In this document: piece by piece, positions 29,318-63,813 of the stretch
Layout of the letters: each line of letters begins with the position of its first letter
Position numbering within the stretch: the first letter of the stretch is position 1
Assembly: GCA_023664445.1 (NCBI GenBank)
Contig: JAMPFN010000006.1
Span: 176-64,175 of the forward strand
DNA length: 64,000 nt
Direction of reading: 5' to 3'
Origin: Clostridium sp.
GTDB lineage: Bacteria; Bacillota; Clostridia; Oscillospirales; Ruminococcaceae
Notes under the pieces: model-generated
What the model was told of the DNA's origin: nothing
Databases searched by the model: none
What the model saw: the letters and a program-made list of their open reading frames with translations, nothing else
Program-made: the position numbers and the translations under genes

Positions 29318-29481
29318 TTAGAACTTGTATTCATAGGTTTTACGCACATCATTTCGCAAATTTTGTTGCTGAGCTGCGTCATTTTTTTGCAATACGCAAG
29401 TATTCCTGCGAAAAAATTCTTTGTCATCATCAAAATTATGCCGGAAAATCCGTACATAATCCCTATGAACACAAGCTCTCA
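29318..29481. mobile_element. ~165-bp MITE, family 1
   Basis: TIRs GAACTTGTATTCATAGG / CCTATGAACACAAGCTC, flanked by TTA and TCA. Interior is homologous to 51852..52017. Overlaps the TGA stop of the acyl-CoA synthetase. Confidence 0.75.
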
Positions 29482-31146
29482 ATTTATAAAACTGTCCTTA
29501 AGACGTATTTCTTTTCTCTTGATTTTTCCGCTTATTGTTTTAGGAAGCTCCTCTACATATTCGACAATTCTCGGATACTTATACGGAGCTGTCACTCTTT
29601 TTACGTGATCCTGTATATCCTTTGTAAGCTCTAAGCTTGGCTCGTATCCCTTAGCGAGAACGATAGTAGCCTTAACGACCTGTCCTCTGATCGGGTCGGG
29701 AGCGGATGTAACGGCGCATTCTACCGCTGCCGGATGCTCGAGTATTGCGCTTTCGACCTCAAACGGTCCGATTCGATATCCTGAGCATTTGATAACATCG
29801 TCGTTTCTGCCCATAAACCAATAATATCCGTTTTCATCTGTTACGGCAACGTCGCCCGTATCGTAATATTCCCCTAAAAGGATCTCGTCGGTCATTTCTT
29901 TATTATGGTAATATCCCGTAAAAAGTCCGACCGGAGGATTTCCCTTGACGTCATATACAACAATGACTCCTTCCTCGCCCGGTTTGCACTCCTCTCCCTT
30001 ATCGTTAAGAAGCCTGATATCATAAAGCGGGGCAGGCTTGCCTGTTGAACCGGCTGTCGGTTCGAGCCACATAAAGTTTGCGATCAGCACAGAACCTTCC
30101 GACTGTCCGAAGCCTTCGCGAAGCTTTATGCCCGTGAGCTTATACCAATCGTTGAAAACCTGCGGATTGAGAGGTTCGCCTGCGATACAGCATGTTTTTA
30201 TGCTCGACAGATCAAATGATTTTACATCTTCCTGAAGCATGAAACGGAACATTGTAGGCGGTGCGCAAAATGTCGTGACTTTATATTCGGATATTTTTTT
30301 CAGAAGATTCAAAGGAATGAATTTGTCCATATCGTATGCGAAAATAACCGCGCCGCATATCCATTGACCATATATCTTTCCCCAACCGAATTTTGCCCAG
30401 CCGGAATCCGACACGCTCATATGAAGTTTATTTTCCTGTACCTGCTGCCAATATTTAGCAGTAACAATATGTCCGAGAGGATGCGCAAAATTATGCTGTA
30501 CAAGCTTTGGCATGCCTGTTGTGCCGGAGGTGAAATAAACGAGCATTATATCGTTCCATTTATTTGCTTCCTCTCCCGAAGGACGCTCAAATTCATCGGA
30601 GAATTCGGCAATACGCTCTTCAAAATACTCCCAGCCGTCAATTTTCTTATCAACAACAATTTTGTTTTTAAGACTTGGTATCTCCGGTTCGGCAGCCGTT
30701 ACCTGATCTATTACAAACCGGTCAGGCAGACATATGACCGTCGATACCTCCGCAGCATTTCCTCTGTATACAATATCTTTTTTCGTAAGCTGAAGCGTTC
30801 CCGGGATCAGAACCGCTCCGATCTTGTGAAGAGCTGTTGCGCAGACCCAATATTCCCATCTTCTTCTGAGAATGAGCATTACGACTGTGCCTTTTTTTAT
30901 TCCGATACTCTTGAAGTAGTTTGCCGTACGGTTTGACAGCTTTGAAATATCGGTAAATGTAAACTTTTTCTCTTCACCATGATCGTTACACCACACAAGA
31001 GCAAGCTTTTCCGGTTCTGTTTTCGCCCATTCATCGACAATATCGAATCCAAAATTAAAATTTTCCGGAACATTCACCTTATAATTTTCCTTGAAATCCT
31101 CGTAGCTGTCAAATTCGATGCGAGGCAAATATTTATCCAACAACAT
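29479..31146 (-). CDS. short/medium-chain acyl-CoA synthetase (AMP-binding)
   Basis: YFTSGTTGMPK, GFGQSE, YDTGD, GYRIGPFEVES and PKTISGKI motifs. Confidence 0.9.
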   Translation of the reverse strand: MLLDKYLPRIEFDSYEDFKENYKVNVPENFNFGFDIVDEWAKTEPEKLALVWCNDHGEEKKFTFTDISKLSNRTANYFKSIGIKKGTVVMLILRRRWEYWVCATALHKIGAVLIPGTLQLTKKDIVYRGNAAEVSTVICLPDRFVIDQVTAAEPEIPSLKNKIVVDKKIDGWEYFEERIAEFSDEFERPSGEEANKWNDIMLVYFTSGTTGMPKLVQHNFAHPLGHIVTAKYWQQVQENKLHMSVSDSGWAKFGWGKIYGQWICGAVIFAYDMDKFIPLNLLKKISEYKVTTFCAPPTMFRFMLQEDVKSFDLSSIKTCCIAGEPLNPQVFNDWYKLTGIKLREGFGQSEGSVLIANFMWLEPTAGSTGKPAPLYDIRLLNDKGEECKPGEEGVIVVYDVKGNPPVGLFTGYYHNKEMTDEILLGEYYDTGDVAVTDENGYYWFMGRNDDVIKCSGYRIGPFEVESAILEHPAAVECAVTSAPDPIRGQVVKATIVLAKGYEPSLELTKDIQDHVKRVTAPYKYPRIVEYVEELPKTISGKIKRKEIRLKDSFIN

Positions 31147-31191
31147 TTTAAAACTCCTTTTTAACAAAAAAACGATCCAAACGACTCCCGA

Positions 31192-57456: not shown

Positions 57457-57861
57457 ATGAATAATCTTTTTATAGTTTTATCTGCAAATACAAATCAAAG
57501 CGCGGGCAGCAGCATGCTCACAACATTCCTGTTGTTTGCTATCGTTATCGTTTTCTTTTATTTTCTTATGATAAGACCTCAAAAGAAAAAGGATAAAGAG
57601 CAGCAGGAAATGCGTGAAACTATACAGATAGGCGATGAGATCATGACTATCGGCGGTATAGTCGGTATCGTTGTTAAAAAAACAGAGGACACCGTTGTTA
57701 TCGAAACAGGCGGCGATAAGAGTAAGCTTAGGATCAAAATGTGGGCGATACAGGAAAATGTTACCGTTTCCGAAAAGCTTACCGCTGAAAAAAATGAAAA
57801 GAAGAAAGCTATGATGGAAGCCGCACAAAATAAAAAGAAAAAAAAGCAGGAAAAACAATAA
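57457..57861 (+). CDS. yajC: preprotein translocase subunit YajC
   Basis: TM-FYFLMIRPQKK and GDEIMTIGGIVG motifs. Confidence 0.92.
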   Translation: MNNLFIVLSANTNQSAGSSMLTTFLLFAIVIVFFYFLMIRPQKKKDKEQQEMRETIQIGDEIMTIGGIVGIVVKKTEDTVVIETGGDKSKLRIKMWAIQENVTVSEKLTAEKNEKKKAMMEAAQNKKKKKQEKQ

Positions 57862-57910
57862 GATTTTTATCTGCGTTCTGACATTGTCAAATTGAACCAA
57901 AATACCAATA

Positions 57911-57948
57911 AAATACCCTTGACAGGTTAGTTTCTGTCAAGGGTATTT
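57911..57948. terminator. bidirectional intrinsic terminator
   Basis: AAATACCCTTGACAG / CTGTCAAGGGTATTT between convergent yajC and the acyl ligase gene. Confidence 0.8.
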
Positions 57949-57961
57949 TTGCGATGCTGCC

Positions 57962-57983
57962 TTAGAGCCTGTTCAGTATCTTA
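57962..57983. mobile_element. minimal family-1 MITE scar
   Basis: TTA-GAGCCTGT-TCAGTATC-TTA, next to the ligase stop codon. Confidence 0.45.
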
Positions 57984-57985
57984 AA

Positions 57986-59494
57986 CTAAATCGAAGCTCG
58001 AATGATTTTTTTAGAAGCTGTTTTAGGAAATTCAGTATCTCTGATAATCAGTTTTGTAATACGCTTTGCCGGCGGAAATTCCGCATTTACTTCATCTATC
58101 TTTTGCTGAATATCAGCTTCAATATTCTCGGACACATAATCGGGATCGGGATATACCTCCGCTGTGAGCAGATCATTCTTTGCGTAAACAACAATTTCTT
58201 TTATAGGTTTACAGCAGGCAAACTGATTTTCGATTTCCTCGGGGGAAACATTTTCACCATTGGATAAAATAATCAGATTCTTCTTTCTGCCGGTTATATA
58301 GACATATCCGTCATCGTCCACATAGCCCAGATCTCCTGTTTTCAGCCAACCGTCCTCTGTCAATGTCTTAGCGGTTTCTTCAGGGTTTTTATAATATCCT
58401 TGCATAACGGACTTACTCTTTACGCATATTTCGCCGTCCTCAATACGGATCTCGCAGCCCGGAACTCGTCTGCCTACAGATTTTGGCTTCGGACAGCCTT
58501 TTACGCCCGTACAGATACGCGGCGAACATTCCGTCATGCCGTAGCCCTGAGCAATGGCAATGCCAAATTCCTTATAACCGTCAATGATATCGGGGCTAAG
58601 ATATGCGCCACCCGTATAGATCACGCTGAAATTCTCGCCAAAGGTTTCCTTGCCGACTGCAATTTTATCGGGATTTTTTTCTGCCGCAAGCTGCATTTTT
58701 GACAAAATGGAAGCTGCTATCAAAGGCACGAATGTCGTTTCATCCGGCTGAAAAATTTTCAGATTTTTTGGAATGTGCATAAGCGAATCGTTGACGCAAA
58801 GAATTCTTCCGTACCACAAAGCGCATAGAATATCACAGGTAAAGCAGAAAACATGATGCACCGGCAATACTGTCATACGCTTCTGACCGCGGAAATTATT
58901 GTCGGGTTCACAGGTCGTATTATCGATAAGATTGCCGTTGCTTAGCATGACGCCCTTGCTCTGACCGGTGGTTCCCGAAGTAAAAAGAATTGCCGCAAGG
59001 TCGCTTTCTTTCGGATCGCCGTCAGGAGTTTTTCCGATATACTCGTCAATAATATCGCCAAGAAACAGAAAGCTTTCCTGCTTTTCATGAAGATGAATAA
59101 AATATTTCACCTGCGGACAAAGCTTTTTAAACTGTTCGATCTCGTTTTCATGACGCTTGTCCACAATAATAATTTCGCTATCCGAACGGTTTACCTCATC
59201 GGCAATTTTTTCCGCAGGATTGGCATTATCAAGAGGAACGGTCACATTTCCGCTACATTGAATACCAAACCAGGCTGTCAGGTACTCATAGCTTGTAGAG
59301 CCGATAACAGCGGCGTGTACGCCGTTTGGAAACTTTTCCGCGATCCAAACCGCAAAGCTGTCGCAGTCGCGGCGAAAATCGTGAAAGCTTTTGTCACGAA
59401 GCTTACGGTGCAGATACTCTCTGACGAAAGGCTCGTTGCCGAATACCGTATCGGCACGATAAACAAGTTCTTTAAGTGTAGAGATCTCCGCCAT
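57986..59494 (-). CDS. long-chain fatty acyl-AMP/CoA ligase (adenylation enzyme)
   Basis: FTSGTTGQSK, GYGMTE, WLKTGDLG, TGRKKNLI and PKTASKK motifs. Confidence 0.9.
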   Translation of the reverse strand: MAEISTLKELVYRADTVFGNEPFVREYLHRKLRDKSFHDFRRDCDSFAVWIAEKFPNGVHAAVIGSTSYEYLTAWFGIQCSGNVTVPLDNANPAEKIADEVNRSDSEIIIVDKRHENEIEQFKKLCPQVKYFIHLHEKQESFLFLGDIIDEYIGKTPDGDPKESDLAAILFTSGTTGQSKGVMLSNGNLIDNTTCEPDNNFRGQKRMTVLPVHHVFCFTCDILCALWYGRILCVNDSLMHIPKNLKIFQPDETTFVPLIAASILSKMQLAAEKNPDKIAVGKETFGENFSVIYTGGAYLSPDIIDGYKEFGIAIAQGYGMTECSPRICTGVKGCPKPKSVGRRVPGCEIRIEDGEICVKSKSVMQGYYKNPEETAKTLTEDGWLKTGDLGYVDDDGYVYITGRKKNLIILSNGENVSPEEIENQFACCKPIKEIVVYAKNDLLTAEVYPDPDYVSENIEADIQQKIDEVNAEFPPAKRITKLIIRDTEFPKTASKKIIRASI

Positions 59495-59718
59495 TATTTC
59501 AGCCCTCCGATATAGGCGATCAGTTCGCCTACCGTCTTGCTGTTTGCCGCCTCGGCTTCATCGATCTCCACGTCGAAAGCGTCCTCACAATCGCCGAGCA
59601 TGCACATAAAGTCATAAGAATTAAAACCGATATCCTCTATAAAACGTGACTCTTCTTCTATCTCATTGGATTCAATATCAATATACTGCGTAATCAGCTC
59701 TGTCAGTTTTTCAAGCAT
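59494..59718 (-). CDS. acyl/peptidyl carrier protein
   Basis: 74 aa, acidic, with the GFNSYD phosphopantetheine Ser motif. Stop overlaps the ligase start (TAATG). Confidence 0.88.
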   Translation of the reverse strand: MLEKLTELITQYIDIESNEIEEESRFIEDIGFNSYDFMCMLGDCEDAFDVEIDEAEAANSKTVGELIAYIGGLK

Positions 59719-59732
59719 TTTTCTTACCTCCG

Positions 59733-61139
59733 TTAAGTCATATCAATGATTTCCCGAATCGTTCTATTCGGATTTTCTATGCTTCGGAACAAAACACGTC
59801 CCGTAAAATAGTACAGGAATTCGATTTCCTGCGGAGTAACAAGCTCGGACTGATATCCGAAATGGAAAGTCAGACCTCCGTCGCCGAAACGATGCATTGC
59901 CGTAATGTAAAGCGGCTGAGGCTGTCTGCCGCTGTTATACCATCTGCTTTTGACGGGAATATCTTTAAGATAAGGCACAAGGCTTTTAAGCGTTGCGTTC
60001 TGATACGTAAAGCTGACGCTCTGATAGCATCCGCCCTGAGGATAGCCGAATTTCTGCCTTTGCTGACCGTAAAAGCCAAGCGTTGGATAATCGGCATGAA
60101 GAAACAGCTCCTGCTGCGCTTTATTGATGATATCCATAGATTCAAGTACCGTTTTATCAAGATCTATTATGGTACGCAGATCAAAGCAATGCATTCTGAC
60201 GCCGCCGCTTCGCTTATTGTGAAGAGTGGATCTGCGGCTTACGAAATCCTTGATCGTTACGTCAGTTTCGTTGTTGTTGAATTTGGAAAGCACAGTTCTG
60301 ATGGCATGAAGTATCACAACGCTGACGGGAATATTATTTTCTTCAGAAAAACGCAGTATCTTATTGGTGGAATCCACATTCAGATCATAAGTTACAGTTC
60401 TGCCCGCGCCCGTTTTTGTGGCAAGCACACCATAGCGCTGACCGGGATTTTCCTTGCGCCATTGTATCATTCTTCCGAAACCTGTATAATCGGTGTACAT
60501 AGGTTCGGGCTTATTCAGGATCTCCTGCCAGAAAGCCGTATCGCGCTGCTGCTTTTTGCTGCCGTTATACTCCAGATCTTTTTTGACGGATTCTATATAA
60601 GACGCCATTGGTTTCGGATAAGGCAGATCGTATATAAGATGACAGTAAATGTCCATTACATCTTTTGTAAAGGTTATCACAGAGCATGAATCCATACAGC
60701 AGTGATGCACATTGAAATAGTAGCCGTTGTAGCCGTCAGGCATTGAAACGATAACGATTCGTGAAAGTTCTCCGCCAAAAGTATCAAAGGGCTGCGAAGT
60801 CCAGCGGTCGAGGATCTCGTGAGCTTTCTCTTCGGTCAAAGCAGAAAAGTCGTAGTACTCAAAATATTTGTTTTCATAAGGCATTACATACTGCCAAAGT
60901 TCCCCCGTATCAGGGTCTTTCCATATACGCATACGCATCGACTCGCACCGTTCCACAGCGCGGTTCAGCGCCTCGCGAAGAACGGAAATATTAAGTCCCG
61001 TTTTCAAGTACTGACCTGTACCTATATTTACGATTTCATGAGTAGGACTTAAAGAAAGAGTATAGATATGCACCATTTGCGCCGCAGTAAGAGGATAACA
61101 GTCGCGCTTTATTCCTCCAATGATTTTTTCCATAGACAC
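59733..61139 (-). CDS. stand-alone NRPS-type condensation domain protein
   Basis: YPLTAAQ (C1), ESMRMR (C2) and HHCCMDS (HHxxxD active site); 468 aa. Confidence 0.88.
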   Translation of the reverse strand: MSMEKIIGGIKRDCYPLTAAQMVHIYTLSLSPTHEIVNIGTGQYLKTGLNISVLREALNRAVERCESMRMRIWKDPDTGELWQYVMPYENKYFEYYDFSALTEEKAHEILDRWTSQPFDTFGGELSRIVIVSMPDGYNGYYFNVHHCCMDSCSVITFTKDVMDIYCHLIYDLPYPKPMASYIESVKKDLEYNGSKKQQRDTAFWQEILNKPEPMYTDYTGFGRMIQWRKENPGQRYGVLATKTGAGRTVTYDLNVDSTNKILRFSEENNIPVSVVILHAIRTVLSKFNNNETDVTIKDFVSRRSTLHNKRSGGVRMHCFDLRTIIDLDKTVLESMDIINKAQQELFLHADYPTLGFYGQQRQKFGYPQGGCYQSVSFTYQNATLKSLVPYLKDIPVKSRWYNSGRQPQPLYITAMHRFGDGGLTFHFGYQSELVTPQEIEFLYYFTGRVLFRSIENPNRTIREIIDMT

Positions 61140-61239
61140 ACCTCCGTATAAATTATATTAAAATAGTTCTCCTGTTTATATAGTAACATAATTTTACTAA
61201 TATGTCAAGGATTTCTTTTGCGGCAACCATGGAAATGAT

Positions 61240-61500
61240 TTTTTGAGAAACTTGCAGGGGACGCTGTCCCCTAACCCCTGAAATGATTTCCGTGTTGCGC
61301 AGTATGTTCATTTCTTGCCATGATGCAGGAAACGAACCAAAGTACTTTAAAATAGTATGTTTTTTAATATACATACGAAAGCTGATTGTTGAGTTCTGCT
61401 ATTGAGTGATAATCTGTGTTGTCGTCTTTGGAGGGTGATTCCCCACAGTGTGGGGAAATGTCCCGAAGGGACAAAAGGGACGGGCGACCGTTGGGAGACA
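61240..61500. repeat. mosaic repeat cluster: modules D and E plus a C-like REP hairpin
   Basis: TTTTGAGAAACTTGCAGGGGACGCTGTCCCCTAACCCCTG; TTCATTTCTTGCCATGATGCAGGAAACGAACCAAAG; GGTGATTCCCCACAGTGTGGGGAAATGTCCCGAAGGGACAAAAGGG (compare 3585..3630). Confidence 0.8.
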
Positions 61501-61580
61501 GCCCGCCTGCATCCTCCGCCCTGCTATGAAAAATTTTTATTCAATTCCTTTTGTTCCGCTTTCAAGTAGGGTGACTATAT

Positions 61581-62741
61581 TTATAGAACTTTCTTTACCT
61601 GATTCATGCATAAGAAGATCAATTTAATAAACACAAAAAAATTACATGCTGTTATAAGCGGAACAATAAACAACAGCACAACTACCATTGACTGATAATG
61701 ATTCCAGATCTCTGTAAATTGTATATCTTGTATATATTTTATAAAACGATCATAGTAATATCCTATATCAAACAATTGCTCCTTCACAGGTAAAAAGCCC
61801 TCCGGAATATATATATCAGCAATGCCGAATTTAAAAATTAAAAACACAGTTAAAAGCATGAAAATAAGCAAAAAAATATTTAATACCAATTTTTTTGTTT
61901 TAACCTCAGAATTGTCTTTCAAGGATACCTTGATTGACAAAAACACAGAAGAAACTTTCTTTAAAAAAATACGGCACACTTGAATAACAATACAAATCAC
62001 GCTCAGATCTATCAAAATATAAAAGAAATTCATTAAGAGCCTTTTTATGCTGTACAAATTTGTTTCGTAATAAAATGCAGATAATTTCCCGTCTAACAAT
62101 TCATTAGTATCATAAATAATATCATTGTCAGACTGACTGTTTGATTTAATATATAAAAAATCTGTTTTTGCAGTATCTTCTAAGAGATTGATTGGCACAA
62201 ATACCGTATCTGACCCATTAGAGGACAATTTATTAATAATATCGTCCTTTTCGGAATAGACACCTAATATTGATTTTTTCTGTCCGGACAAATAAATCTC
62301 ATTTCCAATTATATCAATACTTTTAAAAAGCAAATTCGCTAACTTATCACTGATAATTACTGCATTATGTTCTGAAAGCATATCCAAACCAAAAAATTCA
62401 CCTTTAATAATATTCAATTTATGTATCGGTAAATAATAATTATCAGTATAGATTATATTGACATTTTCTGATATGAGACTGTTTTGACACGATCCAACTA
62501 TACCGGTTTCTCTCACCTGAGCGTTCAATATTAAATTTTCATTATTACTGCGTGCGTTTTCCACATCCGCAACGCTGATCGTATTATTTTTTTCATCTGA
62601 ATTATCCATTAAAATATATTCCATTGCATCGGGAAATGCATTATTTATTCTTTGATACAGCGATAAATTGAGCTTTACAAAAAAGATAAAAAGCACTGCA
62701 TAGATAAATGCCATTATTCTTGACCTATGTACTTTATCCAT
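61581..62741 (-). CDS. membrane protein with a MacB-like extracytoplasmic domain
   Basis: TM1, extracytoplasmic IIKGEFF...AVIISDKLANLLF..IIGNEI (MacB_PCD-like), and three C-terminal TM segments. Confidence 0.7.
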   Translation of the reverse strand: MDKVHRSRIMAFIYAVLFIFFVKLNLSLYQRINNAFPDAMEYILMDNSDEKNNTISVADVENARSNNENLILNAQVRETGIVGSCQNSLISENVNIIYTDNYYLPIHKLNIIKGEFFGLDMLSEHNAVIISDKLANLLFKSIDIIGNEIYLSGQKKSILGVYSEKDDIINKLSSNGSDTVFVPINLLEDTAKTDFLYIKSNSQSDNDIIYDTNELLDGKLSAFYYETNLYSIKRLLMNFFYILIDLSVICIVIQVCRIFLKKVSSVFLSIKVSLKDNSEVKTKKLVLNIFLLIFMLLTVFLIFKFGIADIYIPEGFLPVKEQLFDIGYYYDRFIKYIQDIQFTEIWNHYQSMVVVLLFIVPLITACNFFVFIKLIFLCMNQVKKVL

Positions 62742-63813
62742 TATTTATCACCCTTACCGTTTCACCATTTGTCAATGCTCTTGAAGATGATATAACAATT
62801 TTAGTATATTCATTTATGTCGTTTCCTGTTATGGCGGCATTAACATTATTATGCGATATTTGGTTTACATAAACCTTCTCCACATATGATTCCTTTCCAA
62901 ACAAACCCTCTTTGGTACGGATAACATATACAAAAGTATCGCCGTATTCATTGACTGAAACTGCATTTAAAGAGATCACATTATTGTATGCCTGTGATGA
63001 GAGTTCATATAAAACATTCACTTTTTTTCCTTCATTCAAATGTATCTCCTCGTCTGTAATTTCGGCATAAAATGAGTATTGCAAGGTTTCGGGATCGTAT
63101 ATTTTTTTAGTTACTGCCATATTGACCTTTTTTTCTTCAGCAGTCATTTTTCCGTTTATTAATTCATCTTGATTATAAGACACTTCTACCCTGCCTCCAA
63201 CAGGACATAGAGCGCCCTCGTCCTCATTCATTGAAAATTGAACGGACATCGATTGATCTCCCTCTGTGAATTTTGCAAGGGATTGACCGGCGGGAATAAA
63301 CGTATTTTCCGATACGGCGATCTGAGAAATAATACCGTCTGATTGGGCGCAGATCTCGCCGGAGTAAGGCGTTTGCGATTTATAAAGTTCCATTTCCTTT
63401 TCAAGTATTTCTAACTGCGTATTCAGCTGTTCACGTTCACTGTAATTATGCCATTGGGAAAGCTGTTCATTCAGCTTCCGGATCTCCAGTTCCTTTTTTT
63501 GAATCTCAATTTCAAATTCCTTTGAATTCACCTCAAAAAGAACATCTCCGGCTTTTACAGTTGAATTTTCTTCTGCTAAAACAGCGGTAATTTCCAGCGG
63601 TACATTATAACTGATATCACGCTTGTTTTCTATAGTAACTATACCCTCGGTTTTCAGATCAATAGGAAGTTCATCCCATTTTGGCGTTGAAATTTCAACA
63701 GTCGTTAATGTCAGGTTATATAACGTCTTTGAAAAAAACGTACATAAAATCAAAATAATCAATAAAGTTAACGAACAGCATATTAATACCCTGTTTTTTT
63801 TATTGGATCTCAA
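62734..63813 (-). CDS. HlyD/RND-type membrane fusion (periplasmic adaptor) protein
   Basis: TM anchor, lipoyl half-motifs (VKAGDVLF, AQSDGIISQI), alpha hairpin and ALTNGETVRV tail. Confidence 0.8.
   Translation of the reverse strand: MRSNKKNRVLICCSLTLLIILILCTFFSKTLYNLTLTTVEISTPKWDELPIDLKTEGIVTIENKRDISYNVPLEITAVLAEENSTVKAGDVLFEVNSKEFEIEIQKKELEIRKLNEQLSQWHNYSEREQLNTQLEILEKEMELYKSQTPYSGEICAQSDGIISQIAVSENTFIPAGQSLAKFTEGDQSMSVQFSMNEDEGALCPVGGRVEVSYNQDELINGKMTAEEKKVNMAVTKKIYDPETLQYSFYAEITDEEIHLNEGKKVNVLYELSSQAYNNVISLNAVSVNEYGDTFVYVIRTKEGLFGKESYVEKVYVNQISHNNVNAAITGNDINEYTKIVISSSRALTNGETVRVINNG

What the first reader, a model, noticed from the sequence alone, without database searches (positions are those of the whole stretch)
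57986..61139. Minimal condensation-carrier-adenylation cluster: probable fatty-acid amide (N-acyl amine) biosynthesis
Seen: a compact operon of a stand-alone C domain (HHCCMDS), a carrier protein (NSY serine) and a fatty acyl-AMP/CoA ligase, translationally coupled, with its own promoter (minus-strand TTGACA at 61203-61208 and TGnTACTAT) and terminator. Known: gut Clostridia use this three-gene architecture to join fatty acids to amines, including neurotransmitter-like amines, giving host GPCR ligands. Inference: the product here is unknown, and the variant HHxxxDS motif may reflect a distinct acceptor.
Basis: partly seen in the sequence, partly recalled or inferred. Interest (0 to 1): 0.68.

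Follow-up and report, generated by a model that had tools for sequence, protein, structure and literature searches.

The report
Fatty-acid-amide synthase cassette in Ruminococcus
These three genes are a real, intact copy of a known gut-bacterial pathway that joins a fatty acid to a small free amine, here in a Ruminococcus-type bacterium outside the family where the pathway is usually reported, and its product is still unknown.

Summary
Three co-directional minus-strand genes encode a stand-alone condensation enzyme (C), a 74-aa acyl carrier protein (ACP) and an acyl-activating ligase (A). They have one good promoter and one strong terminator.

The cassette belongs to the known fatty-acid-amide (FAA, "CTA") family of gut Clostridia:
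- C matches the crystal-structure protein OaaC of Coprococcus eutactus (PDB 12kh) over its full length (E 8e-88). The next best PDB match is 4e-7.
- All three proteins pair one-to-one, in the same order, with the oaa cluster (33, 48 and 39% identity).
- In a tree, C falls with OaaC in a well-supported subclade of stand-alone C proteins, apart from the twelve C domains taken from multidomain NRPSs as outgroup.

New points are modest:
- The cassette belongs to a divergent clade found in at least 65 Ruminococcus/Oscillospiraceae-type species genomes (human gut, colon, rumen, rabbit). Published surveys place the family almost wholly in Lachnospiraceae.
- Congeners carry a different cassette type (45% identity) or none.
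- The closest copies (95%) sit in another genus, which indicates old lateral transfer.
- Selection is strongly purifying (dN/dS 0.02-0.05).

Verdict: a new member of a known kind, product unknown.

The parts
61180..61208 (-). Sigma-70-type promoter: -35 TTGACA (61208-61203), 17-nt spacer, extended -10 TGtTACTAT (61188-61180)
   Evidence: Best-scoring promoter-like site in 57700-61700 (10 of 12, TG present). It would leave a 5' UTR of about 40 nt before the ATG at 61133. It is a consensus match only.
59733..61133 (-). Stand-alone condensation enzyme, FAA type (466 aa from ATG 61133; the ORF is open to GTG 61139). RBS GGAGG at 61145-61141. Active-site motif HHCCMDS at residues 143-149.
   Evidence: Pfam Condensation 5e-36. 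PDB 12kh (OaaC) E 7.7e-88 over residues 10-466. In a clade with OaaC, SH-aLRT 99. H144 and D148 are invariant in 28 homologues. AlphaFold model pLDDT 86, pTM 0.83; the best folds are C-starter domains, TM 0.78-0.82.
59494..59718 (-). Acyl carrier protein, 74 aa; phosphopantetheine site Ser34 (DIGFNSYDF). RBS GGAGG lies 8 nt upstream of its ATG.
   Evidence: PP-binding 3.5e-9. The best NCBIfam hits are ACP models, all below their curated cut-offs. 48% identical to the carrier protein of the oaa locus, with the serine aligned.
57986..59494 (-). Acyl-activating (ANL superfamily) ligase, 502 aa. Its start overlaps the ACP stop (TAATG). Core motifs TSGTTGQSKG, GYGMTE, TGD and GRKKNLI are read off the alignment, with K496 assigned as the A10 lysine from general knowledge of the ANL motifs.
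   Evidence: AMP-binding 3.6e-52 plus AMP-binding_C_3. The best NCBIfam model is long-chain-fatty-acid--CoA ligase, 4e-65, below its cut-off. 39% identical over the full length to the ligase of the oaa locus, E 4e-121. Junction sequence.
57910..57949 (-). Intrinsic terminator, 37 nt after the ligase stop. It is probably bidirectional, because T runs follow the stem on both strands and the convergent yajC gene ends at 57861.
   Evidence: 16-bp stem with a T-rich tail. Free energy -25.5 kcal/mol, z -5.5, 0 of 200 shuffles as stable. Sequence.

Best explanation
This is a complete three-gene C-ACP-A ("CTA") fatty-acid-amide synthase operon.

Proposed mechanism, inferred by homology to the reconstituted OaaA/OaaACP/OaaC system:
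1. The 502-aa ligase adenylates a free medium- or long-chain fatty acid and loads it as a thioester on the phosphopantetheine arm of the 74-aa ACP (Ser34).
2. The ACP is made holo in trans by the genome's single Sfp-type phosphopantetheinyl transferase, which lies on another contig.
3. The stand-alone C enzyme (catalytic His144 in HHCCMDS) transfers the acyl group from acyl-ACP to the amino group of a freely diffusing small amine and releases an N-acyl amide. No thioesterase is needed.

Shown here: gene integrity, domain content, order, motifs, family membership, purifying selection and conservation of the triplet. Inferred: the chemistry. Unknown: which fatty acid and which amine are used, and whether the product acts on the host or on the bacterium itself.

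The cassette belongs to a divergent Ruminococcus/Oscillospiraceae-type clade. It probably reached this lineage by old lateral transfer from a neighbouring genus.
For: Family membership:
- C versus OaaC (PDB 12kh): E 7.7e-88 over the full length. The next best PDB hit, EntF, is 3.7e-7.
- OaaC, OaaA and OaaACP were reconstituted in vitro and make fatty acid amides (PMC13310621).
- A locus encoding a protein 99% identical to OaaC reads C463-ACP82-A519, with the same Pfam domains and order. Window identities to it are C 33% (1e-96), ACP 48% (1e-21) and A 39% (4e-121).
- Tree of 128 C proteins: all stand-alone C proteins are separated from multidomain NRPS C domains (SH-aLRT 100). The window falls in a 49-row subclade with OaaC (SH-aLRT 99).
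- Motif HHxxxDS fits the published (D/H)HxxxD(S/A) family motif.

Conservation and function:
- The C-ACP-A order is found in 61 of 65 related species genomes. In the other four the contig ends before the ligase gene. No flanking gene is shared.
- dN/dS is 0.02 for C and 0.04-0.05 for A against the closest copies.
- The genome holds one C domain, two carrier proteins (the other taken to be the fatty-acid-synthesis ACP, context not examined) and one Sfp-type PPTase.
- The model has a C-domain fold, and its nearest solved folds are lipo-initiation C-starter domains.

Lateral transfer:
- Genomes whose C is 92-95% identical (L001, L002, L004, L005) have housekeeping GltA at 65-66% and ArgS at 66-69% identity. 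Genomes whose C is 84-87% identical (L006, L007, L029) show the same range (GltA 66-67%, ArgS 66-68%).
- Same-genus genomes have GltA at 85-92% (one partial hit at 94%) and ArgS at 73-84%, but only a 41-45%-identical C, or none.
Against: - No product, transcript or enzyme activity was observed.
- Identity to the only characterised member I could obtain is modest (33-34% for C), so substrates cannot be transferred from it.
- The ligase scores below every curated NCBIfam cut-off, so "fatty acid" as the donor rests on homology to OaaA and to fatty-acyl ligase models, not on an equivalog match.
- The transfer inference rests on two marker genes. Synonymous divergence is saturated (dS 1.2-1.5), so timing and direction are uncertain.
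Confidence: 0.85

Rival explanations
1. The C enzyme transfers the ACP-bound acyl chain to a hydroxyl group or to a large acceptor (a lipid, glycolipid or cell-envelope precursor). It would then make an ester or an envelope modification rather than a diffusible N-acyl amine.
For: - The C-domain superfamily includes ester-forming members (general knowledge).
- The acceptor cannot be read from the sequence.
- Identity to OaaC is only 33%.
- Some sub-lineages add an alpha/beta-hydrolase gene directly downstream.
Against: - The window's C sits inside the same subclade (SH-aLRT 99) as amide-forming OaaC.
- No lipid or cell-wall acyltransferase appears among the 11 PDB sequence matches or the top 50 fold hits.
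- No membrane or envelope gene is co-conserved with the triplet in 65 loci.
- Neither C nor A matched any Pfam domain other than those of soluble C and ANL enzymes. No signal-peptide or transmembrane prediction was run.
Confidence: 0.06
2. The functional unit is larger. The upstream same-strand HlyD-type adaptor (62734-63813) and the MacB-like permease (61581-62741) would be the dedicated exporter of the amide. The cluster would then be five or more genes rather than minimal.
For: - The genes lie on the same strand directly upstream.
- They carry MacB_PCD and HlyD/RND-adaptor domains.
- Earlier notes of this scan describe FAA-type operons with built-in MacB-type pumps in other genomes. These are leads only.
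Against: - The two genes are separated from C by a 440-nt intergenic region filled with dispersed repeats, and the cassette has its own promoter.
- Their composition is very different: GC 29-36% against 44% for the cassette.
- Neither gene accompanies the cassette in any of 65 related loci or in the six same-genus type-2 loci.
- No ATPase gene is adjacent.
Confidence: 0.08
3. The cassette is a decaying or silent remnant with no current function.
For: - Distribution is patchy: 25 of 301 family genomes have a homologue.
- There is no adjacent regulator or PPTase.
- No expression data exist.
Against: - All three frames are intact and all catalytic motifs are present.
- dN/dS is 0.02-0.05 over saturated synonymous divergence.
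- Good RBSs, a promoter and a terminator are present.
- An Sfp-type PPTase exists in the genome.
Confidence: 0.02

Closest known systems
Oleoyl-aminovaleric-acid (oaa) cluster of Coprococcus eutactus: OaaC (PDB 12kh), OaaACP, OaaA (Chang et al. 2021, Nat Microbiol 6:792, as cited in PMC13310621; Singh, Grant and Gulick 2026, J Biol Chem, PMC13310621)
   Same: - Three free-standing proteins in the order C-ACP-A, with the same Pfam domains, including AMP-binding_C_3.
- Full-length one-to-one homology for all three proteins.
- The same tree subclade.
- Ser after the catalytic Asp, and the ACP serine aligned.
   Different: - Identity is only 33% (C), 48% (ACP) and 39% (A).
- The first motif residue is His (HH), not Asp (DH).
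- The host is a Ruminococcus/Oscillospiraceae-type bacterium, not a Lachnospiraceae.
- The TetR-like and LytTR genes that flank the oaa locus are absent here.
- Substrates are unknown here.
- Homodimeric gating, as shown for OaaC, was not tested.
"CTA" / FAA-NRPS cassettes of Lachnospiraceae: Agathobacter rectalis (lauroyl tryptamine), Blautia (oleoyl dopamine), Enterocloster ebf/ecf (N-acyl lysine and putrescine amides). Sources: PMC10871352, PMC13060934.
   Same: The same three-gene logic: a fatty acid is joined to a free amine, and the carrier gene lies between C and A (PMC13060934).
   Different: - Published surveys place these cassettes almost only in Lachnospiraceae: 95.4% of 713 positive genomes in Clostridium cluster XIVa, and 36 species, all Lachnospiraceae.
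- ebf/ecf are described with six genes or domains, whereas this cassette is the bare three.
Lipo-initiation C-starter domains of lipopeptide NRPSs (CDA C1, PDB 4jn3/5dua; RzmA, 7c1h)
   Same: These are the best solved-fold matches for the model (TM 0.78-0.82). They use an acyl donor, and they are reported as the sister group of FAA C domains.
   Different: They are embedded in multidomain assembly lines. Per PMC13310621 they take acyl-CoA donors and a carrier-bound aminoacyl acceptor. Sequence identity is 15-18%. Here the protein stands alone, and the cassette has a single carrier protein.

Membership tests
Fatty-acid-amide (FAA / CTA) NRPS-like cassette of gut Clostridia | Three discrete free-standing proteins (C, carrier, A) in one operon, with the carrier gene between C and A | tested here: met
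   ORFs and junctions, domains, and the same layout in the oaa locus L087.
Fatty-acid-amide (FAA / CTA) NRPS-like cassette of gut Clostridia | The C protein belongs to the FAA C-domain clade rather than to assembly-line C classes | tested here: met
   E 7.7e-88 to OaaC against 3.7e-7 for the next PDB hit. Tree: stand-alone clade SH-aLRT 100, subclade with OaaC SH-aLRT 99. Only one characterised member (OaaC) could be included.
Fatty-acid-amide (FAA / CTA) NRPS-like cassette of gut Clostridia | Active-site motif (D/H)HxxxD followed by Ser or Ala rather than Gly; second His and the Asp conserved | tested here: met
   HHCCMDS in the window. The clade shows 62 of 62 HHxxxD(S/A). Published logo in PMC13310621. 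H144 and D148 are invariant.
Fatty-acid-amide (FAA / CTA) NRPS-like cassette of gut Clostridia | ACP-type carrier with a phosphopantetheinyl serine, and a PPTase available | tested here: met
   PP-binding and ACP-model hits. Ser34 aligns with the OaaACP serine. One Sfp-type PPTase lies elsewhere in the genome. The holo form was not shown.
Fatty-acid-amide (FAA / CTA) NRPS-like cassette of gut Clostridia | The A protein is a fatty-acid-activating ANL enzyme homologous to OaaA, not an amino-acid adenylation domain | tested here: met
   39% identity over the full length to the oaa ligase, E 4e-121. Best model is long-chain-fatty-acid--CoA ligase. Nearest solved structures are acyl-CoA ligases. 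Substrate chain length is not determined.
Fatty-acid-amide (FAA / CTA) NRPS-like cassette of gut Clostridia | No acceptor carrier protein and no thioesterase: the acceptor is a free small amine and the product is an N-acyl amide | tested here: inconclusive
   Only one carrier gene and no TE gene lie in the cassette, and the genome has only two carrier proteins. This is consistent with the feature. The amide product itself needs biochemistry.
Fatty-acid-amide (FAA / CTA) NRPS-like cassette of gut Clostridia | Autoinhibitory C homodimer released by holo- or acyl-ACP (shown for OaaC only) | not tested
   Only a monomer model was made. No dimer prediction or interface comparison was done.
Canonical modular NRPS | Multidomain C-A-PCP modules with an amino-acid-activating A domain and both donor and acceptor carrier domains | tested here: not met
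   All three proteins are single-domain and free-standing. The genome has one C domain in total. The tree separates this protein from multidomain C domains.

The most novel reading that the evidence does not exclude
The Ruminococcus/Oscillospiraceae "type 1" CTA clade is 33% identical to OaaC, keeps an HH rather than DH motif, and is conserved under strong constraint in at least 65 gut and rumen species genomes. It may use a donor-acceptor pair not among the amides characterised so far. That would define a new class of microbial N-acyl amide that is widespread in herbivore and human guts and is exchanged laterally between genera, replacing or complementing a second cassette type in the same genus.
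Probability: 0.3. Interest if true: 0.5.

Novelty: new member of a known kind. Interest (0 to 1): 0.34.

Why it matters
FAA cassettes make lipid amides that act on human GPCRs, and some have been linked to inflammatory bowel disease (PMC10871352, PMC13310621). Published surveys of isolates found them almost only in Lachnospiraceae.

This cassette and its 65 relatives extend the same machinery to Ruminococcus/Oscillospiraceae-type fibre and starch degraders of the human gut, colon, rumen and rabbit caecum. Sources annotate these C proteins only as "hypothetical protein" or "peptide synthetase". Two distinct cassette types occur within one genus.

Identifying the product would add a clade to the catalogue of microbiome-derived N-acyl amides. 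It would also give a second, divergent C/ACP/A set for studying acceptor specificity. It does not change the known mechanism.

Tried and rejected
- **Rfam scan.** A scan of 57800-61700 at E up to 1 gave only one chance-level hit, so no riboswitch or leader was found.
- **Empty-site test.** In seven same-genus genomes the gltA-yajC pair is conserved, but what follows yajC differs between species and maps to four or more different places in this genome. No clean insertion site can be defined.
- **Universal accessory gene** (decarboxylase, exporter, PPTase) next to the cassette. Across 65 loci there is none. Only sub-lineage additions occur: a MarR gene upstream in 13 loci, and alpha/beta hydrolases downstream in 7 and 4 loci.
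- **Chang et al. 2021** is not held. The other characterised C domains could therefore not be put in the tree, and substrates could not be predicted by nearest neighbour.
- **Foldseek PDB library.** It ends on 2026-04-08, and the OaaC structure (12kh) did not appear among the fold hits. The sequence search was used for that comparison instead.
- **Recent transfer or foreign composition.** This idea was rejected. Cassette GC and GC3 resemble native genes, and dS is above 1.
- **Upstream HlyD/MacB genes as part of the unit.** This was weighed and judged unlikely (see rival explanations).
Full report
**1. Observation**

The region 57986-61139 holds three consecutive minus-strand ORFs of 468, 74 and 502 aa.
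- Pfam assigns them Condensation (5e-36, residues 12-464), PP-binding (3.5e-9), and AMP-binding plus AMP-binding_C_3 (3.6e-52).
- NCBIfam finds only sub-threshold NRPS C-domain matches for the first protein, ACP models for the second, and long-chain-fatty-acid--CoA ligase as the best model for the third.
- The ACP stop and the ligase start overlap (TAATG). C and ACP are 14 nt apart, and a GGAGG sits before each start.
- A 16-bp hairpin with a T-rich tail lies 37 nt past the ligase stop. Its free energy is -25.5 kcal/mol with z = -5.5. It can also serve the convergent yajC gene.
- The real start of C is most likely ATG 61133. The Shine-Dalgarno spacing is 7 nt to that ATG and 1 nt to the GTG at 61139.

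**2. What it is**

The C protein matches PDB 12kh over its whole length (E 7.7e-88). The next best solved protein, EntF, scores 3.7e-7. 12kh is OaaC of Coprococcus eutactus, a free-standing C enzyme. With OaaA and OaaACP it was reconstituted in vitro and makes oleoyl-, palmitoleoyl- and lauroyl-amides of aminovaleric acid and GABA (PMC13310621).

I fetched a metagenomic locus that encodes a protein 99% identical to OaaC. It reads C(463)-ACP(82)-A(519), with AMP-binding plus AMP-binding_C_3 in the ligase. The window's proteins match these one-to-one:
- C: 33% identity, E 1e-96
- ACP: 48% identity, E 1e-21, with the carrier serine aligned
- A: 39% identity, E 4e-121, with all ANL core motifs present

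An exhaustive HMMER scan of 1.84 billion representatives found 122 cluster representatives at E below 1e-30, most of them stand-alone proteins of about 445-490 aa.

I built a maximum-likelihood tree of 128 C proteins (quick search, LG+G4).
- All stand-alone proteins separate from C domains cut out of multidomain NRPSs (SH-aLRT 100).
- The window falls in a 49-row subclade (SH-aLRT 99). This subclade also holds OaaC and the same-genus cassettes.

An AlphaFold model (pLDDT 86, pTM 0.83) has the C-domain fold. Its best solved matches are the lipo-initiation C-starter domains of CDA synthetase and RzmA (TM 0.78-0.82). This agrees with the published sister relationship. No lipid or cell-wall acyltransferase appears among the PDB sequence matches or the top 50 fold hits.

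**3. The motif**

The published FAA motif is (D/H)HxxxDS, with Ser in 42%, Ala in 36% and Gly in 17% of 127 family members. My alignment gives the following:

| Group | Motif |
|---|---|
| This cassette's clade (62 members) | HHxxxD(S/A): 45 Ser, 17 Ala |
| Same-genus type 2 | DHMTMDS |
| OaaC | DHRLMDS |
| 80 stand-alone representatives, last position | Ala 30, Ser 27, Gly 8 |

The motif is therefore the family norm and carries no acceptor information.

**4. Completeness and selection**

- The genome is 2.83 Mb and 99.95% complete. It has one C domain and two carrier proteins: this one, and one on another contig that is presumably the fatty-acid-synthesis ACP.
- It has one PPTase. This is a 202-aa Sfp-type enzyme (AusB/HetI-like) on another contig, and it can plausibly serve both carriers.
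- Against the closest copies, dN/dS is 0.02 (C) and 0.04-0.05 (A), with dS 1.2-1.5. The genes are therefore under strong constraint.

**5. Distribution and history**

A scan of species-representative genomes found 65 loci whose C is 64-95% identical. They are nearly all labelled Ruminococcus sp., Oscillospiraceae or Clostridia MAGs, and they come from human gut, deer colon, rabbit, rumen and mouse.
- 61 of the 65 loci show C-ACP-A in the same order. In the other four the contig ends before the ligase gene.
- None shares a flanking gene with the window.
- DNA similarity to the closest loci stops exactly at the coding limits, 57994-61146.

Within the window's own GTDB genus (22 species), nine other species have a C-ACP-A cassette. 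It is a different type (41-45%, 45-50% and 47-49% identity for C, ACP and A) and sits elsewhere in the genome. The rest have none.

Housekeeping proteins tell the opposite story:

| Genomes compared with the window | C identity | GltA identity | ArgS identity |
|---|---|---|---|
| Same genus | 41-45%, or none | 85-92% (one partial hit 94%) | 73-84% |
| L001, L002, L004, L005 | 92-95% | 65-66% | 66-69% |
| L006, L007, L029 | 84-87% | 66-67% | 66-68% |

The window's C is also nested inside that foreign clade (SH-aLRT 99). I read this as lateral acquisition from a neighbouring genus. The transfer is old enough for synonymous sites to saturate and for composition to match the host: cassette GC is 44% and GC3 45-51%, like gltA and feoB.

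In the wider family, 25 of 301 genomes (18 of 166 genera) have any homologue, and only three besides this one have the type-1 form. What follows yajC differs between congeners, so no clean empty site exists.

**6. Comparison with the literature**

Two surveys place these cassettes in Lachnospiraceae.
- 95.4% of 713 positive RefSeq Clostridia genomes were in cluster XIVa (PMC10871352).
- CTA homologues occurred in 36 isolate species, all Lachnospiraceae, at a cut-off of 70% identity (PMC13060934).

The present clade is too divergent for such thresholds. Sources annotate these proteins only as "hypothetical protein", "peptide synthetase" or "condensation domain-containing protein". Earlier notes of this scan already record similar cassettes in other Clostridia, in rumen Oscillospiraceae and in Bacteroidales. 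Within this project, presence outside Lachnospiraceae is therefore not a surprise.

**7. Rivals**

- *Ester or envelope acylation.* This cannot be excluded without chemistry, but the clade placement with OaaC and the absence of co-conserved envelope genes argue against it.
- *Upstream HlyD-like and MacB-like genes as a dedicated exporter.* They are separated from the cassette by a repeat-filled 440-nt gap. They have a GC of 29-36%, against 44% for the cassette. They never accompany the cassette elsewhere.
- *Dead remnant.* This is contradicted by intact motifs and very low dN/dS.

**8. Verdict**

The cassette is a new, divergent member of the known FAA/CTA family, with unknown substrates and a history of lateral transfer. 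Interest is moderate to low for mechanism. It would be higher only if the product proves to be a new amide class.

Noticed in passing
window 61295-61343 (minus strand), about 90 nt upstream of the cassette's -35 box: A copy of a dispersed repeat of about 54 nt. The consensus is GAAGCTTGATTTTCTTTGGTTCGTTTCTTGCATCAAGGCAAGAAATGAACATAC, which forms a 13-bp hairpin. The genome holds 184 copies, and 42 of them lie within 150 nt of a contig end. It looks like a REP- or MITE-like element that breaks the assembly. The copy here lacks the consensus 5' part.
   Followed up: partly
window 61418-61580: A second, longer repeat of 80-150 nt, GC-rich and structured. It has 5-12 copies at 94-98% identity on other contigs (C11, C65, C44, C85, C77, C157). 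It lies between the MacB-like gene and the cassette.
   Followed up: no
window 61581-63813: An AT-rich pair (GC 29-36%) of a MacB_PCD-containing permease-like protein without an ATPase and an HlyD/RND-adaptor-like protein. Only 4 of 21 congeners have a homologue of the permease, at 34-37% identity. It is not co-conserved with the cassette.
   Followed up: partly
L081-L086 (same-genus genomes G003, G021, G007, G010, G018, G008): A second "type 2" C-ACP-A cassette occurs in nine congeners. It carries the motif DHMTMDS and is 41-45% identical to the window's C and 39% identical to OaaC. One genus therefore hosts two distinct FAA cassette lineages.
   Followed up: partly
L017:2096-2527, L016:3682-4500, L049:9253-10131: Sub-lineages of the type-1 clade add genes to the cassette. 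Thirteen loci have a MarR-family regulator directly upstream on the same strand. Seven and four loci have an alpha/beta-hydrolase 76-87 nt downstream.
   Followed up: partly
G000 contig C109:5240-5848 (L067:1417-2025, minus strand): The only phosphopantetheinyl transferase detected in the genome is a 202-aa Sfp-type enzyme (AusB/HetI-like). No AcpS-type gene was found with PF01648 at E up to 0.01.
   Followed up: partly
L005 (JAMPAJ010000012.1, labelled Alistipes sp.): A cassette with a 92%-identical C sits in a MAG labelled Alistipes (Bacteroidota). The housekeeping ArgS and GltA of that MAG are 65-66% identical to the window's, like those of the Ruminococcus-labelled MAGs. The label therefore looks like a binning or naming error rather than a cross-phylum transfer.
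   Followed up: partly
window 29479-31167 (minus strand): A second ANL-family acyl-CoA synthetase lies in the window. Its best model is MbcS-like (9e-133), below the cut-off. It is unrelated to the cassette.
   Followed up: no
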